From the sequence record PZ296772.1: a stretch of DNA of 64,000 nt, one strand, 5' to 3'. The DNA is from a phage. This document shows, one piece after another, positions 54,641-58,701 of this stretch. The first letter of the stretch is position 1; each line of letters starts with the position of its first letter. The position numbers and the translations under genes were made by a program. The notes under the pieces were generated by a model. The model did no database searches. It worked only from the letters and a program-made list of their open reading frames with translations, and was not told the origin of the DNA.

Positions 54641-54662
54641 GGAGGACTCAGGTCCTCCTTTT
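54641..54662 (+). terminator. intrinsic terminator
   Basis: GGAGGAC-TCAG-GTCCTCC then TTTT. Confidence 0.6.
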
Positions 54663-54681
54663 GGATAATAAAGGAGTTAAC

Positions 54682-55278
54682 ATGCGAAACCAAAATAATG
54701 ATATTGACTCAATGTTCGAAGAGTTCCGAAATAAGGTAAATCCACCTACGTCTTTAGTTGATTCATTACGATATGTTGCAACTGGACGTAAATGGTACTG
54801 GTCGTCTTCTTATGAGACAACTGAATATGCAAATAACCGAAAATCTTTATTAGCCCCAGGTATTATGATTCATGATATCGGAGCTATTGCTAAACTAGTT
54901 GCAGACCATGATATTAGATTCACTGATTTCATTGCTCCTACATGGTCTGTTTGTTGTTTAAACACTGAACGGGACTATATCAGCGAACGCTCTGAAGATT
55001 ATTATGGTTTTAGAGATAAGCTCTTAAGGTCTAACATGTTTTATATCGATACTGAAGTTCTAGTCGATAATAAAAAATATTACTTTACGTTAATCGTCGA
55101 TTCTGAAACTATGTATGAAGGCAAGCCTTTGCTTAAAAGAGTTGATGCTTTAAGTGCTATTGATGCGCTTTATGAAACCATGGTTGTTAGTCCTAATTTC
55201 ACTAACAATTTAATCCTTGAGCAATTTATTATGGAATGTAGAGAATATGTCAAAGCCAACCCTATACATGCCAAGTAA
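54682..55278 (+). CDS. hypothetical protein with C-terminal EQFIMECR tail motif
   Basis: ORF 54661..55278 trimmed to ATG after AAAGGAG; no obvious TM segment. Confidence 0.55.
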   Translation: MRNQNNDIDSMFEEFRNKVNPPTSLVDSLRYVATGRKWYWSSSYETTEYANNRKSLLAPGIMIHDIGAIAKLVADHDIRFTDFIAPTWSVCCLNTERDYISERSEDYYGFRDKLLRSNMFYIDTEVLVDNKKYYFTLIVDSETMYEGKPLLKRVDALSAIDALYETMVVSPNFTNNLILEQFIMECREYVKANPIHAK

Positions 55279-55642
55279 GCCCTGGGCGTATGAATACAAG
55301 CGTAAATTAATCCCAAATGAAGTACTATTTGGCCCTATTTTAGCTTTAGCATTTTTAATCTTTATGATTATAGGAGCTGTTTTAGATTCTAGTGAAGTTA
55401 TATCGTCTGATGCAGCATTTTCATTAATGTTCGTCGCACCACTTATTGTACCATTTTTATTAATGCCTATTAACTGGGTAGGATATTGGCACCAAGGCCG
55501 TCATCACAGAGCTCGAGTTCGTGAGTGGAAAGTTCAGTGCGCAAAAGCCCAAGCTCAGTATGATGAAGCTGTTAAAAAGTATGAATATGAAGAAGCTATG
55601 GAATTCGTTAAGGAAATAAGATGCAAAAGCCTCAACTCTTAA
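55247..55642 (+). CDS. small membrane protein with EFVKEIRC tail motif
   Basis: ORF 55217..55642 trimmed to first ATG (55268 also possible); two hydrophobic helices. Confidence 0.5.
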   Translation: MSKPTLYMPSKPWAYEYKRKLIPNEVLFGPILALAFLIFMIIGAVLDSSEVISSDAAFSLMFVAPLIVPFLLMPINWVGYWHQGRHHRARVREWKVQCAKAQAQYDEAVKKYEYEEAMEFVKEIRCKSLNS

Positions 55643-55980
55643 CCGTATGGCCTTCTCTTGGTGAGAATATTTTAATTTTTATCACGAGCGCCGGCATGGG
55701 ATTTGCCTTTGGATTAGTTGGATTTCTTATTGACGGCGTTGTGTTAGGATTTATAGGGAACACTGGTGGGTTCACAGACCAATGGCAGGACTTACGGTAT
55801 ACCCAAGCCTTTGCATCCATCGCATCCTTTTGTACTGTAGTCTATTTTTACTACGATTTTATAAACCATAACAAGAAAAATAAAAAGGTTTACGCTTCTC
55901 AAATGATTAGTTATAATGAACTCCTAGCTAGACGTGAAAATGAAACAATCGAAAACTTTATTAAGGAATGTAGAAAATGA
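55621..55980 (+). CDS. small membrane protein with ENFIKECR tail motif
   Basis: 119 aa; AAGGAAA SD inside upstream gene; multiple hydrophobic segments. Confidence 0.55.
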   Translation: MQKPQLLTVWPSLGENILIFITSAGMGFAFGLVGFLIDGVVLGFIGNTGGFTDQWQDLRYTQAFASIASFCTVVYFYYDFINHNKKNKKVYASQMISYNELLARRENETIENFIKECRK

Positions 55981-56282
55981 GTAAGATTATTGAAATTAAA
56001 GTACCAGAGTTTAATGATGCCAAATCCGCTTCAGATGCAATTTATAAACTTCTGAATCAAGCTGAACGTATCGAAGAAGAAGCAACAAAGATCGCAGACC
56101 AATATTCTGTATCATTTTCTGTAGGTGATTATGGTAGCGGTCGTACTTATTATCCTAAGGGTGAAATCGTATCCCAGTGGATGAAAAATGAAATTGAAAA
56201 TAATGGCGGCGATGTTAAGCGTGAAGGTAATGGTTACGTTATTACTGAAGGTGCTTGGGTTTCGTCTTCTGCGTTGTGCTAA
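55977..56282 (+). CDS. hypothetical protein, tandem paralog 1 (C-terminal GAWVSSSALC)
   Basis: 101 aa; ATG overlaps upstream stop. Confidence 0.55.
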   Translation: MSKIIEIKVPEFNDAKSASDAIYKLLNQAERIEEEATKIADQYSVSFSVGDYGSGRTYYPKGEIVSQWMKNEIENNGGDVKREGNGYVITEGAWVSSSALC

Positions 56283-56291
56283 GGAATCATT

Positions 56292-56564
56292 ATGTCTAAA
56301 GAACAAACCGAACTGGCTGAAGCCGTAGCAAAAATATATGCAGCTATTGAGGCTGCCAAAGAAATTGCTGATAAACAAAACACAACATTCGACTTGTATC
56401 CAGCTTATGGTATGGGTGGAACCTATCATTCACCAGGACATCTTAAAGCCGATCTTGAACGTTGTACAAAAAACGGTTATGCTGAATGGGCTGATGTTTA
56501 TCAATACGACTACAACCTGAGCCTTGAAGATGGTGGTTGGGTTGCATCTTCACACACTTGCTAA
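56292..56564 (+). CDS. hypothetical protein, tandem paralog 2 (C-terminal GGWVASSHTC)
   Basis: 90 aa; junction TGCTAAGGAA..ATG conserved. Confidence 0.55.
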   Translation: MSKEQTELAEAVAKIYAAIEAAKEIADKQNTTFDLYPAYGMGGTYHSPGHLKADLERCTKNGYAEWADVYQYDYNLSLEDGGWVASSHTC

Positions 56565-56573
56565 GGAAACCAT

Positions 56574-56771
56574 ATGTCTCGTGAATTAGATTGTGCTGTA
56601 CGTACCGCGGTAGCTGCTCTAGAAAACCTGTTCCAAATTGCAACAGAAGAACGCGAAGAAGTTACATTATGGATTGAAGATAACGCAGGTCTGAATCTCC
56701 AGGACGCGATCTCATTATCTAATAATAGCATTACTGTTCAAGGCTGGGTATCGTCTAGTTATTCTTGCTAA
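56574..56771 (+). CDS. hypothetical protein, tandem paralog 3 (C-terminal QGWVSSSYSC)
   Basis: 65 aa; junction conserved. Confidence 0.5.
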   Translation: MSRELDCAVRTAVAALENLFQIATEEREEVTLWIEDNAGLNLQDAISLSNNSITVQGWVSSSYSC

Positions 56772-56775
56772 AACA

Positions 56776-56814
56776 GTTTACAATAAGATAGGACTATGTT
56801 ATAGTAGTCCTATC
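56776..56814 (+). promoter_or_regulatory. early promoter with palindromic stem-loop cassette
   Basis: GTTTAC, 18 nt, TATAGT; inverted repeat GATAGGACTA / TAGTCCTATC identical to 49843-49870. Confidence 0.65.
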
Positions 56815-56833
56815 AAATTAAATGGAGTCCGCA

Positions 56834-57073
56834 ATGATTTATTACGAAAGTATCGGAACCAAAGTGGTTGGTAAAACCATTACTCGTGAAAAGTTTGCAA
56901 AGATATTCGATATGCGTTATAAAAAATCTGAACACAAAGGCATCCGATTCGAAGATGCGCACTGTGCAATTTGCCCTTATAATGAAGACGTAAATGGTAC
57001 AATCGTTCCATTGGTAGAGGCTTCACATGATGACCTCTGGGATGAATATAATATCGCATGTCGTGAAATTTAA
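56834..57073 (+). CDS. hypothetical protein
   Basis: ORF 56822..57073 trimmed to ATG after GGAG; early promoter upstream; CAIC Cys pair. Confidence 0.5.
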   Translation: MIYYESIGTKVVGKTITREKFAKIFDMRYKKSEHKGIRFEDAHCAICPYNEDVNGTIVPLVEASHDDLWDEYNIACREI

Positions 57074-57101: not shown

Positions 57102-58058
57102 ATGATGTTAGTTATTGGTTCTCGTGCACTTCACTATCATGGTCTTATTGATTCTAGCGCTATCAAAAATAGTGATTGGGACTTTATTGCAGACCAAGGT
57201 TCTTGGAATGCATTCAAAAATCAAATGATGGGTGTATATGTTCATCAAGATAACCCTGATGTCCAAGTTTTCAAATGCTTCCATAATGGACGCGAAACTC
57301 ATTTTGAAGCATATATTGTTCCGGCAATCACTAATGTCCGTGAATTAGTCGGTGAACTCACTCCTGAAGATTTCACGTCTTCTTATGACCTTTTAAAATA
57401 CGCCAAGAAAAATTTGACTAAAGACCGTTTGACCGGGTTTTACTGGGCAACTCCTGAGATATGTCTTGCAATTAAAATGTCTCATCGTTTCAAGAAAAAT
57501 AATCCATTCTTTTTAAAGACTATGAACCATATTCAGTATCTTCGCGGTAAAGGTGTTACACTGAACGATGAACTTACTGAAATTATGCTGAAACGCCAGA
57601 AAGAAACTTTGAACTATGCTCACCCGGTTCTTGACACTTCTAAAAGTGCGTTCTTTAAAGATGACATCTATACATATGACCATGATACTATTCATGAAGC
57701 CATTGCACTAACTGACCAGCCTGCTTATAAGTTTTATATGAAAGAAGGCTCAGAAGTTATGACATCACGCGAGAAGTTCGAATCATTACCAGAAATGGTT
57801 AAATTAGCCGGTGTATATGAAGAAGCTTGTGTATTAGCTCTTGAACGTTCACAGATTCCTAACGACTTTAAAATCCATCCGAGTGATAGTTTTATGATGG
57901 CCCTTGAAAAGGTCTGTACATCAATCACATCAGGATGGTTCCGTGAGTTCGCTTGGGAAAATTATAGCAAAGTAGTAAGTATGTACCAAAGCTTAGGACA
58001 TGACGATTACGTCAAGCGTTTCAAACAAAACTTTCATATGGTAAAACCTTTCAAATAA
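57102..58058 (+). CDS. hypothetical protein, possible nucleotidyltransferase-like N-terminus
   Basis: 318 aa; GAGG SD; N-terminal GS..(x17)..DWD pattern loosely like the pol-beta NTase signature. Confidence 0.5.
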   Translation: MMLVIGSRALHYHGLIDSSAIKNSDWDFIADQGSWNAFKNQMMGVYVHQDNPDVQVFKCFHNGRETHFEAYIVPAITNVRELVGELTPEDFTSSYDLLKYAKKNLTKDRLTGFYWATPEICLAIKMSHRFKKNNPFFLKTMNHIQYLRGKGVTLNDELTEIMLKRQKETLNYAHPVLDTSKSAFFKDDIYTYDHDTIHEAIALTDQPAYKFYMKEGSEVMTSREKFESLPEMVKLAGVYEEACVLALERSQIPNDFKIHPSDSFMMALEKVCTSITSGWFREFAWENYSKVVSMYQSLGHDDYVKRFKQNFHMVKPFK

Positions 58059-58070
58059 TTTCACAAAACA

Positions 58071-58100
58071 GTTTACAAGGTCTGTAGTTGTTGATACTAT
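58071..58100 (+). promoter_or_regulatory. early promoter (sigma70-type)
   Basis: GTTTAC, 18 nt, TACTAT; leader 58103-58135 near-identical to 50192-50226. Confidence 0.65.
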
Positions 58101-58138
58101 AGACCTATCAAAACAAATGAGTGAATGGAGATATAAAA

Positions 58139-58339
58139 ATGACTACTTTGAATAAACGTTTCGGTAAAGCTAAACCTGGTTGTGCAGCAGAACGTCGTTA
58201 TGTTTTCGCTCAGTTAGAAGATGTAGAGTATCAGATTAATCAAGTTCACATTACTGGTATCGAGCCTATGTGTGGCCTTGAAGCTCTTCGTGAAGTTCGT
58301 GATGGGTATCGTCGTGACATCGAAGAAATGTCAAAATAA
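58139..58339 (+). CDS. hypothetical small protein
   Basis: ORF 58121..58339 trimmed to ATG (MTTLNKRF); leader shared with the 50227 gene. Confidence 0.5.
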   Translation: MTTLNKRFGKAKPGCAAERRYVFAQLEDVEYQINQVHITGIEPMCGLEALREVRDGYRRDIEEMSK

Positions 58340-58340
58340 G

Positions 58341-58378
58341 TGTACAAACTGATAGGGCTATGTTATAGTAGTCCTATC
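58341..58378 (+). promoter_or_regulatory. early promoter with palindromic stem-loop cassette
   Basis: TGTACA, 17 nt, TATAGT; inverted repeat GATAGGGCTA / TAGTCCTATC. Confidence 0.6.
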
Positions 58379-58395
58379 AACTTGAGGAGAATATT

Positions 58396-58701
58396 ATGAA
58401 ATTAACAGAAACCAACCGAATCGGTCTTTTTACAATATTTGCATCGCTTTTTTACGCAGCTCTTTCTGTTGCAGTATTACAAAAGGCTTACGATATGGAT
58501 GGTGTTCCTGGTTGTATATTTTTATCACCGTTTTTATTATTCGTCGGAGCTTTGATATTATATGCCACGTCCGGTTTAGACCATAATGTCTGGGTCAATT
58601 ATAAACGTAAATTGTCCGAAGAAGAACACGCAGAAGCTCGTAAAAAAGCTATTGAATCTACCAATCTAGAAAATTTCATTAAAGAATGTCGAGGAAAATA
58701 A
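58396..58701 (+). CDS. small membrane protein with ENFIKECR tail motif
   Basis: 101 aa; GAGGAG SD; two hydrophobic helices. Confidence 0.55.
   Translation: MKLTETNRIGLFTIFASLFYAALSVAVLQKAYDMDGVPGCIFLSPFLLFVGALILYATSGLDHNVWVNYKRKLSEEEHAEARKKAIESTNLENFIKECRGK

What the first reader, a model, noticed from the sequence alone, without database searches (positions are those of the whole stretch)
55977..56771. Tandem triplication of small proteins ending in G-x-W-V-x-S-S-x-x-C
Three consecutive genes (101, 90 and 65 aa) end with ..EGAWVSSSALC, ..DGGWVASSHTC and ..VQGWVSSSYSC, each followed by the same TGCTAA stop context and a GGAA ribosome site. The N-terminal parts are divergent. A conserved terminal Cys after a Ser-rich stretch could be a modification or metal-binding site. 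This looks like an in situ expanding gene family of unknown function.
Basis: seen in the sequence. Interest (0 to 1): 0.55.

Follow-up and report, generated by a model that had tools for sequence, protein, structure and literature searches.

The report
Cys-tailed small proteins with nucleotidyltransferase partner
The three small genes are real, old paralogues of a widespread but unstudied phage protein family that ends in Trp-x-Ser-Ser-Ser-x-x-Cys, and in every phage lineage examined they sit just upstream of a conserved nucleotidyltransferase gene, so the two probably work together in an uncharacterised early-infection module.

Summary
Three adjacent + strand genes (55977-56282, 56292-56564, 56574-56771; 101, 90 and 65 aa) end in GAWVSSSALC, GGWVASSHTC and QGWVSSSYSC. 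The window is an RB69-like T4-type phage (Mosigvirus), and the genes are RB69 ORF139c, 137c and 136c.

The similarity lies in the proteins, not in the junction DNA. The terminal Cys uses both TGC and TGT, the Ser codons use both TCN and AGY, and the downstream DNA differs between copies.

The family is large: about 120 clusters at 50% identity. Members are acidic (median pI 4.35), and 118 of 123 sampled members end exactly in Cys. There is no Pfam or NCBIfam family and no paper. The predicted α/β fold is confident (pLDDT 92.6) and has no PDB match.

The duplications are old. Orthologues in other genera are 48-62% identical, while paralogues within a genome are about 30% identical. Arrays hold 1-6 copies.

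My best reading is that the tail couples each paralogue to this enzyme. That coupling is inferred, not shown.

The parts
55889..55917 (+). Promoter-like site (TTTACG-N17-TATAAT) inside the 3' end of the e.3-like gene, 60 nt upstream of gene A.
   Evidence: Consensus scan, 10 of 12 matches. The same position is annotated as a T4 middle-type promoter in phage SA79RD. This is a consensus match only.
55977..56282 (+). Paralogue A (101 aa; RB69 ORF139c type). It has a long N-terminal helix, a GDYGSGRTYYP loop, a small beta sheet, and the tail W94-V-S-S-S-A-L-C101 (nt 56256-56279).
56292..56564 (+). Paralogue B (90 aa; RB69 ORF137c type). It has the AYGMGGTY loop typical of most family members and the tail W83-V-A-S-S-H-T-C90 (nt 56538-56561).
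   Evidence: phrog_899 E = 4.8e-19. Orthologues 56% identical in JS98 and a Klebsiella phage.
56574..56771 (+). Paralogue C (65 aa; RB69 ORF136c type). It has an N-terminal helix MSRELDCAVRTA… and the tail W58-V-S-S-S-Y-S-C65 (nt 56745-56768). Only the last ~18 residues are detectably related to A and B.
   Evidence: phrog_4882 E = 1e-36. hhalign 94% probability, E = 1.4e-7 over 18 columns. Orthologues 55-58% identical.
56770..56819 (+). Composite early-promoter/stem-loop element (PeSL-like). It ends the A-B-C unit and could start the next one.
   Evidence: TTTACA-N17-TATAGT. Hairpin of -16.6 kcal/mol, z = -5.6. It is one of three copies of a 50-nt repeat. It fits the PeSL description in PMC4122927.
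56822..57073 (+). RB69 ORF135c-like gene (83 aa, unknown function). It lies between the array and the enzyme gene but is not part of the conserved core.
   Evidence: phrog_3723. Homologues were found only in Mosigvirus and Dhakavirus loci.
57102..58058 (+). Partner gene (318 aa; RB69 ORF134c; Pfam DUF7277 + DUF7275). It encodes a Pol-beta-type nucleotidyltransferase with a strongly conserved helical C-terminal domain.
58065..58114 (+). Second PeSL-like element, directly after the nucleotidyltransferase gene.
   Evidence: Repeat family D1. TTTACA-N17-TACTAT. Hairpin of -15.5 kcal/mol, z = -4.1.

Best explanation
The three genes are old paralogues of a phage-specific family of small (about 60-150 aa), acidic, folded proteins. 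The proteins carry no signal peptide, so they are probably cytoplasmic. The bodies have diverged, but all keep one C-terminal tail: G-x-W-[VQIL]-S-S-S-x-x-Cys-COOH.

They form the upstream half of a conserved two-part early-gene module. The other half is the MenT/ANT-like nucleotidyltransferase encoded at 57102-58058.

The mechanism I commit to is that the shared tail is the handle through which each paralogue engages this one enzyme. The tail could be a substrate, with its Ser hydroxyls or terminal Cys thiol/carboxylate nucleotidylylated. Or it could be a docking peptide that places the small protein on the enzyme. Either way, a single enzyme would serve 1-6 different small proteins, whose variable acidic bodies then act on different host-takeover or counter-defence targets.

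Shown: paralogy, protein-level selection on the tail, a confident independent fold, the nucleotidyltransferase fold with intact catalytic residues, and strict two-way gene linkage across unrelated phage groups.

Inferred: any physical contact, any modification, and the biological target.
For: (1) Linkage. 32 of 32 loci with a homologue of the enzyme at >= 37% identity carry 1-6 tail-bearing ORFs on the same strand, 17-1417 nt upstream. The pattern is almost absent elsewhere in those loci. The loci cover Mosigvirus, Dhakavirus, Karamvirus, Biquartavirus, Acinetobacter T4-likes, Stephanstirmvirinae, Otagovirus, RSP15, two jumbo phages, Myxococcus phage Mx1 and marine contigs.

(2) The reverse test holds. 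Three phages found through the small protein alone all have the enzyme gene downstream.

(3) The module moves as a unit. It sits at e.2/e.3 here, next to nrdD in Aeromonas phage 44RR2.8t, and in other places in non-T4 phages. It is absent from the T4 e.2-e.3 junction.

(4) The pattern is a conserved terminal motif on otherwise divergent paralogues. The invariant residues are W, S, S and the C-terminal Cys, and conservation is at protein level. The invariant residues are nucleophiles.

(5) The nearest structural relatives of the enzyme transfer NMP to hydroxyl groups: the tRNA 3'-OH for MenT, and antibiotic OH groups for ANT and Lnu. The catalytic G-S, D-x-D and E are invariant.

(6) Distant DUF7275 homologues in Streptomyces, Gordonia and KVP40 phages have no tail-bearing genes nearby. 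They also lack the Cys of the KVCTSITSG motif, which is kept in all linked enzymes.
Against: Linkage could reflect co-regulation or co-transfer rather than contact.

The Trp-to-Cys spacing varies (7 residues in 151 members, 5 in 30, 8 in 3). A few members carry 1-3 residues after the Cys or lack it, which loosens the idea of a precise recognition tag.

The Trp lies in the last beta strand (93-96) of the model and may be purely structural.

In this phage a promoter/stem-loop element separates the array from the enzyme gene, so the two are not strictly one operon.

No known protein-nucleotidylylation system uses such a tail.
Confidence: 0.4

Rival explanations
1. The small proteins are antitoxin-like inhibitors or regulators of a MenT-type tRNA nucleotidyltransferase. 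The acidic helical proteins would cover the enzyme's substrate-binding cavity, as MenA1 does for MenT1, and so control when or on what the phage enzyme acts.
Against: One antitoxin would be enough, yet arrays hold up to 6 diverged copies. The most conserved part is the C-terminal tail, not the helix. There is no sequence similarity to MenA, AbiEi or DUF1814. The enzyme is not strongly basic (pI 6.5). A lytic phage has no obvious need for a toxin-antitoxin pair.
Confidence: 0.2
2. The small proteins are independent early effectors, such as nucleic-acid mimics or inhibitors of host or defence proteins. Their tail would bind a metal or make an intermolecular disulfide or hetero-oligomer among the paralogues. 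The enzyme gene would be only a travelling companion.
For: The proteins are small, acidic and folded, and lie in a hyperplastic early region of a T4-type genome. 65 of 184 members have only the one terminal Cys, so any Cys-based site would have to form between chains. Tandem arrays of diverged small inhibitors are common in phage accessory regions (general knowledge).
Against: This does not explain why linkage to one enzyme family survives transfer between unrelated phage groups and different genome positions (32 of 32 loci). No other conserved metal ligand is present.
Confidence: 0.2
3. The tail is a site of ring-forming chemistry, as in ribosomal peptide natural products. A Ser would be activated and eliminated to dehydroalanine, then attacked by the terminal Cys (lanthionine or aminovinyl-cysteine-like), with the nucleotidyltransferase acting as the Ser-activating enzyme.
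For: The S-x-x-C-COOH spacing in most members resembles the epidermin-type AviCys motif (my own recollection, not tested). The invariant residues are Ser-Ser and a C-terminal Cys. An enzyme that could activate hydroxyls is adjacent.
Against: The proteins are predicted to be well folded, not leader-plus-core peptides (pLDDT 92.6). The Ser-to-Cys spacing varies from 0 to 3 residues. No dehydratase, cyclase or flavin decarboxylase domain appeared among the neighbouring genes or proteins I scanned or saw annotated.
Confidence: 0.05
4. The resemblance is an artefact of a repeated gene-junction sequence (TGCTAAGGAA), with no real protein homology.
For: Genes 1 and 2 share a 21-nt junction repeat (family D7).
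Against: The Cys codon is TGC 49 times and TGT 23 times, Ser codons are TCN and AGY, three different stop codons are used, and the downstream DNA is unrelated across 72 distinct gene ends. HMM and profile matches are significant.
Confidence: 0.01

Closest known systems
MenA1-MenT1 and the wider MenAT/AbiE nucleotidyltransferase toxin-antitoxin systems
   Different: There is no DUF1814, AbiEii or MenA sequence match. The enzyme has an extra, very conserved C-terminal domain (DUF7275). There are 1-6 diverged small genes rather than one. The small proteins have an invariant W-x-S-S-S-x-x-Cys end. The module is encoded by lytic phages. Toxicity and tRNA activity are unknown.
Antibiotic O-nucleotidyltransferases ANT(2'') and LnuA/LinB
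   Different: Their substrates are small molecules. They have no associated small-protein genes and no sequence similarity to the phage enzyme.
Protein nucleotidylylation by Pol-beta-fold enzymes (GlnD/GlnE acting on PII and glutamine synthetase; MntA acting on HepT). This comparison rests on my own knowledge and was not tested here.
   Same: The concept is the same: a nucleotidyltransferase that modifies a hydroxyl of a partner protein encoded nearby.
   Different: Those systems modify an internal Tyr of a single partner. No sequence or specific structural match was found here.
PHROG families phrog_899 and phrog_4882 (unknown function)
   Same: The three proteins are members: E = 1e-22 and 5e-19 for phrog_899, and 1e-36 for phrog_4882.
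   Different: PHROGs splits the family in two and gives it no function. The common tail and the link to the enzyme are not recorded there.
PeSL-bounded ORFan cassettes of T4-type hyperplastic regions (Arbiol 2010, PMC2839356; Comeau 2014, PMC4122927)
   Same: The array and the enzyme gene are bounded by composite promoter/stem-loop repeats in a hyperplastic region.
   Different: Typical PeSL cassettes carry lineage-specific ORFans. This module is conserved far beyond T4-type phages.

Membership tests
Small-protein family with W-x-S-S-S-x-x-Cys end (phrog_899 / phrog_4882) | Significant HMM match to the family profile | tested here: met
   phrog_899 E = 1.4e-22 (A) and 4.8e-19 (B); phrog_4882 E = 1.1e-36 (C). 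An exhaustive profile search found about 123 small cluster representatives of the same architecture.
Small-protein family with W-x-S-S-S-x-x-Cys end (phrog_899 / phrog_4882) | C-terminal W-x-[SAPT]-S-S-x(0-3)-Cys as the last residues | tested here: met
   All three window proteins have it. 118 of 123 family representatives end exactly in Cys. Ser at W+3 in 183 of 184 and at W+4 in 181 of 184 members.
Small-protein family with W-x-S-S-S-x-x-Cys end (phrog_899 / phrog_4882) | Position upstream of, and on the same strand as, a DUF7277/DUF7275 gene | tested here: met
   The gap is 330 nt in the window. The arrangement holds in 32 of 32 loci.
MenAT / AbiE-type nucleotidyltransferase toxin-antitoxin | Toxin has the Pol-beta nucleotidyltransferase fold with G-[GS]…D-x-[DE] | tested here: met
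MenAT / AbiE-type nucleotidyltransferase toxin-antitoxin | Toxin matches DUF1814/AbiEii sequence models | tested here: not met
   Pfam gives only DUF7277 and DUF7275. There are no PADLOC hits and no PDB sequence hits, even with a profile.
MenAT / AbiE-type nucleotidyltransferase toxin-antitoxin | Upstream partner is a MenA/AbiEi-type antitoxin | tested here: not met
   There is no Pfam, NCBIfam or PADLOC match for the small proteins. The fold has no PDB neighbour. Only the gene order and the helical, acidic character resemble MenA1.
MenAT / AbiE-type nucleotidyltransferase toxin-antitoxin | Toxicity of the enzyme, its neutralisation by the partner, and tRNA 3'-end extension | not testable with these tools
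   This needs expression assays and tRNA sequencing.
Lanthipeptide / AviCys-type ribosomal peptide precursors | Unstructured leader-plus-core precursor, with a dehydratase/cyclase or flavin decarboxylase gene nearby | tested here: not met
   The small protein is predicted to be compactly folded (pLDDT 92.6). The window neighbours that were scanned (e.3-like gene, ORF135c and the enzyme) match only unknown-function families, DUF7277 and DUF7275. No such enzyme domain appears in the precomputed Pfam hits of other loci.
PeSL (promoter-early stem-loop) elements | An early-promoter-like TTTACW-N17-TAYWAT overlapping a stable stem-loop, repeated in a hyperplastic region and flanking variable ORFs | tested here: met
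   Three copies. Hexamers are spaced by 17 nt. Hairpins are -15.5 to -17.1 kcal/mol. Two copies bracket a 262-bp insertion that RB69 lacks. The consensus is taken from PMC4122927. The -10 hexamers are TATAGT and TACTAT, one base off that consensus.

The most novel reading that the evidence does not exclude
The W-x-S-S-S-x-x-Cys end is a dedicated tag read by the co-encoded MenT/ANT-like nucleotidyltransferase. If so, this is a previously undescribed phage system in which one enzyme covalently nucleotidylylates a set of 1-6 different small acidic effector proteins early in infection, or builds a nucleotide chain on them. A new kind of protein modification would then be used for host takeover or counter-defence across many unrelated phage groups.
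Probability: 0.2. Interest if true: 0.8.

Novelty: new variant of a known kind. Interest (0 to 1): 0.55.

Why it matters
T4-type and other large lytic phages carry hundreds of small early genes of unknown function. This one has three unusual features that make it experimentally tractable.

- It has a near-invariant chemical handle at the extreme C-terminus: two or three Ser followed by a terminal Cys.
- It occurs as arrays of diverged copies.
- It has an obligate-looking genetic partner that is a predicted active nucleotidyltransferase.

The module occurs in hundreds of sequenced phages, including therapeutic candidates against E. coli, Klebsiella, Acinetobacter, Aeromonas and Pseudomonas syringae.

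If the tail is modified by the enzyme, this would add a new protein-modification system to phage biology. If instead the small proteins restrain a MenT-like tRNA-modifying enzyme, it would be the first such pair described in lytic phages. Either outcome can be tested with a few clones and mass spectrometry.

Tried and rejected
**Junction-nucleotide artefact.** Rejected on codon evidence.

**'Inhibitor of prohead protease' label.** Phage ESCO10 uses this name for the orthologue. Rejected because that record's product names are shifted along T4 gene order (hoc, inh, uvsW, segE…) onto unrelated small genes.

**'Sulfurtransferase' label.** Several records use it, but it belongs to the e.4-like gene upstream, not to this family.

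**Known family.** There were no significant hits in Pfam, NCBIfam, PADLOC or PDB sequences for the small proteins.

**Long Ig-repeat proteins.** These scored in the exhaustive profile search. They are false positives that match a TYQWQ-type repeat, not the tail.

**ORF135c as a third core component.** Rejected; it is confined to Mosigvirus and Dhakavirus.

**Capsid-targeted internal proteins.** This was a lead from the nearby ipI/ipII genes. I did not pursue it. The N-termini do not resemble the T4 capsid-targeting sequence, and the genes lie behind early/middle-type promoters.

**Literature.** Searches for the RB69, 44RR and Pfam identifiers and for C-terminal-Cys phage proteins found nothing relevant.

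- The AFDB fold library was unavailable.

Full report
**Where the window comes from.** The region is 97-98.5% identical to Mosigvirus (RB69-like, T4-type) coliphages. It is read here on the strand opposite to the usual genome orientation. The three genes correspond to RB69 ORF139c, ORF137c and ORF136c. They lie between the e.3-like and e.2-like genes of the lysozyme-tRNA hyperplastic region. In T4 itself, e.2 and e.3 abut and nothing is inserted between them.

**The observation.** The ORFs at 55977-56282 (101 aa), 56292-56564 (90 aa) and 56574-56771 (65 aa) end in …EGAWVSSSALC, …DGGWVASSHTC and …VQGWVSSSYSC.
- The first two are followed by TGC TAA GGAA…ATG. The third is followed by TGC TAA AACAG and a promoter/stem-loop element, so the 'GGAA' part of the description holds for two of the three.
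- Pairwise BLASTP is weak but significant: E = 1e-4, 5e-4 and 2e-3.
- A and B share one PHROG (phrog_899, E = 1e-22 and 5e-19). C is in phrog_4882.
- A profile-profile comparison links the C type to the A/B type with 94% probability and E = 1.4e-7, but only across the last 18 columns.
- No other ORF in the window has this ending.

**Protein or DNA conservation?** I examined 72 distinct gene ends from related loci.
- The terminal Cys codon is TGC 49 times and TGT 23 times.
- The Ser codons switch between the TCN and AGY families.
- All three stop codons occur, and the DNA after the stop is unrelated between lineages.

The conservation is therefore selection on the peptide W-x-S-S-S-x-x-Cys followed by a stop. 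It is not a shared junction sequence.

**The family.** I searched about 1.8 billion cluster representatives exhaustively, using a profile built from window proteins and their database relatives.
- The search gave 170 hits at E <= 1e-3. The best 150 listed included 123 new small proteins (65-143 aa) and 22 long Ig-repeat proteins, which are false positives.
- 118 of the 123 small proteins end exactly in Cys.
- The common plan is an N-terminal amphipathic helix ending in …(I/L)AD(E)xx(L/V)xF, then usually a (A)YGMGGTY(Y)P loop, then an acidic variable stretch, then G-x-W-[VQIL]-[SAP]-S-S-x-x-C.
- The acidic stretch often contains extra W-x-S-S-x-C-like repeats (40 of 184 members).
- In 184 members, Ser occupies W+3 in 183 and W+4 in 181. 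The Trp-to-Cys distance is 7 residues in 151, 5 in 30 and 8 in 3. Median pI is 4.35 and median net charge is -8. 65 members have only the single terminal Cys.
- At least five subtypes exist. JS98-like phages carry five in a row, one of them unannotated.
- No Pfam, NCBIfam or PADLOC model matches, and neither does any PDB sequence. Literature searches found nothing.

**Structure.** AlphaFold2 on paralogue A, with a 24-sequence alignment, gives a confident compact model (mean pLDDT 92.6, pTM 0.78).
- The model has a helix at 15-43, a small five-stranded sheet and a short helix at 67-75.
- The conserved A-W-V-S forms the last strand (93-96), and S-S-A-L-C forms a terminal turn of lower confidence.
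- These are folded proteins, not leader-plus-core peptides.

**Age of the duplications.** A, B and C each have orthologues in Dhakavirus (JS98) and in a Klebsiella T4-like phage at 48-62% identity (E = 1e-21 to 1e-41). Paralogues within one genome are about 30% identical or match only in the tail. The array is therefore ancient and has been remodelled by loss and gain.
- Mosigvirus has 3 copies; Dhakavirus has 4-5.
- Other T4-like relatives (Karamvirus, Yersinia, Aeromonas and Acinetobacter phages) have 2-4 copies.
- A phi92-like Klebsiella phage has 6; Otagovirus has 4.
- In the RB69 reference genome, a 1-nt insertion splits the A gene into ORF139c and ORF138c.

'In situ expanding' is not the right description.

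**The partner gene.** In Aeromonas phage 44RR2.8t the family sits next to nrdD rather than at e.2/e.3, yet it is still followed by a homologue of the 318-aa gene at window 57102-58058, RB69 ORF134c. I tested this link systematically.
- All 14 IMG/VR loci retrieved with the 318-aa protein (43-97% identity) have tail-bearing ORFs upstream on the same strand.
- All 5 loci from species-representative genome assemblies, all of them MAG contigs, have them too.
- So do non-T4 phages: Klebsiella phi1_175008 (Stephanstirmvirinae), Xanthomonas jumbo phage XbC2, Pseudomonas phiPsa397 (Otagovirus), Ralstonia RSP15, Acinetobacter Ac42, a marine contig and PspYZU05.
- In the reverse direction, three phages found only through a small-protein query (Pseudomonas SYP, Myxococcus Mx1, Ralstonia jumbo RsoM2USA) all have the 318-aa homologue 18-1417 nt downstream.
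- The tally is 32 of 32 loci, with 1-6 small genes and gaps of 17-1417 nt. The same pattern occurs twice in all the remaining sequence of those loci, on both strands.
- Genome counts by host genus are also close for the A-type protein and the enzyme: Aeromonas 57 vs 59, Enterobacter 34 vs 36, Klebsiella 32 vs 35, Shigella 17 vs 18.
- Distant homologues that match only the C-terminal domain at 32-36% identity (Streptomyces and Gordonia phages, KVP40) have no such neighbours. They also lack the Cys of the KVCTSITSG motif that all linked enzymes keep.
- ORF135c (56822-57073), which lies between the array and the enzyme here, is confined to Mosigvirus and Dhakavirus and is not part of the core.

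**What the partner is.** Pfam calls it DUF7277 + DUF7275.
- Among 38 homologues, the invariant residues include G6 S7, D25 x D27 and E69, which is the Pol-beta nucleotidyltransferase signature. They also include many residues of the C-terminal half: K125, H128, H174, D193-H194-D195, H198, E240-E241, the LALER motif and KVCTSITSG.
- The AlphaFold2 model is confident (pLDDT 91.6).

It is therefore a predicted active nucleotidyltransferase of the MenT/AbiEii/ANT kind, with an additional conserved domain. By sequence models it is not a member of DUF1814. Its relatives transfer NMP to hydroxyl groups: the tRNA 3'-OH for MenT toxins (PMC10435456), and antibiotic hydroxyls for ANT and Lnu.

**Transcription layout.**
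- A promoter-like site lies 60 nt upstream of A (55889-55917). The same position is annotated as a middle promoter in a close relative.
- A, B and C are spaced 9 nt apart.
- After C comes a 50-nt composite element (56770-56819) with TTTACA-N17-TATAGT overlapping an 11-bp hairpin of -16.6 kcal/mol.
- Two further copies follow the enzyme gene, at 58065-58114 and 58334-58383.
- These elements fit the PeSL elements described for T4-type hyperplastic regions (PMC4122927; PMC2839356).

The array and the enzyme gene are thus neighbouring early/middle units rather than one tight operon in this phage. In many other phages the gap is under 100 nt.

**How it most likely works.** The facts to explain are these:
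- several diverged bodies share one invariant C-terminal tail made of nucleophilic residues;
- the tail sits at the very end of the chain;
- the family has a strict, transferable linkage to one predicted hydroxyl-directed nucleotidyltransferase.

The most economical reading is that the tail couples each paralogue to that enzyme, as a substrate (O- or S-nucleotidylylation) or as a docking peptide. The variable acidic bodies would then address different targets during early infection. I put this at about 0.4. The weaker claim that the two gene families function together in some way I put at about 0.7.

The main rivals are:
- an antitoxin-like inhibitor role modelled on MenA1-MenT1 (0.2);
- independent acidic effectors whose tail binds metal or mediates oligomerisation (0.2);
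- ring-forming chemistry on the tail (0.05).

None of these could be tested here, because no multimer prediction or experiment was available.

**Novelty and verdict.** The genes are catalogued as hypothetical proteins. The family definition, the terminal-Cys tail, its protein-level conservation and the obligate pairing with a MenT/ANT-like nucleotidyltransferase appear not to have been described. By architecture the nearest known kind is a small-protein/nucleotidyltransferase pair (MenAT1), from which it differs in several defining respects. I therefore rate it a new variant of a known kind, with a real chance of being something new. Interest is 0.55: a solid and widespread feature that is easy to test, but with no demonstrated mechanism yet.

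Noticed in passing
window 58065-58383 (compare L038 2950-3035): Relative to RB69, the window has a 262-bp insertion (58078-58339) carrying a 66-72 aa ORF (58121 or 58139 to 58339). Two copies of the 50-nt promoter/stem-loop repeat bracket it, where RB69 has a single copy. This is a clean example of PeSL-mediated cassette insertion.
   Followed up: yes
L038 875-1181 (RB69 ORF139c/ORF138c): The RB69 reference genome has a 1-nt insertion (a T at position 205 of the gene alignment) that splits the A paralogue into 71-aa and 33-aa ORFs. All other Mosigvirus copies seen are intact at 101 aa. This is either a laboratory-strain pseudogene or a sequencing error.
   Followed up: partly
window 55621-55980, 58396-58701 and 54661-55278: The e.3-like membrane protein and the RB69 ORF133c-like membrane protein flank the module, and both end in …ENFIKECR(G)K. 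The e.5-like gene contains an internal FIMECRE with a matching 22-nt DNA repeat (55225-55246 / 55957-55978). This is a second recurring C-terminal motif of unknown meaning.
   Followed up: partly
L008 (OM386655, phage ESCO10) and L001 (MK962757, phage JK45): There are public annotation errors. In ESCO10, T4 product names (hoc, inh, uvsW, segE, uvsY, gp25, gp26) are shifted onto these unrelated small genes. In JK45 the e.4-like gene is called 'sulfurtransferase', with no support found here.
   Followed up: partly
L026 6006-7028, L023 1-2472, L028 3064-3723, L026 3638-4198, L040 921-1418: In several unrelated phages the nucleotidyltransferase gene lies next to or near RNA-repair genes. RNA ligase is directly downstream in RSP15. 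RNA ligase plus Pnkp lie 4-6 kb upstream in XbC2. RNA ligase lies about 1.2 kb upstream (two genes away) of the distant homologue in Streptomyces phage Annadreamy. Macro-domain genes are also nearby: RSP15 ORF154 (annotated 'phosphatase'; the macro-domain call is my own reading of its sequence, not tested) and an annotated macro-domain gene in Mx1. This is a possible hint of an RNA-end or ADP-ribose-related role.
   Followed up: no
L026 4195-4979, L031 232-420, L042 5202-5384: A few family members depart from the terminal-Cys rule. RSP15 ORF155 and ORF157 end in …CNGY and …CGYL. A MAG copy ends in …CGY. A marine copy ends in …WTSSSQN with no Cys. The Cys is usually, but not always, the last residue.
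   Followed up: partly
window 56822-57073: ORF135c (83 aa, phrog_3723) contains H-C-A-I-C-P and a C-terminal A-C-R-E-I, which could be a small Cys/His site. It occurs only in Mosigvirus and Dhakavirus, always directly upstream of the nucleotidyltransferase gene.
   Followed up: partly
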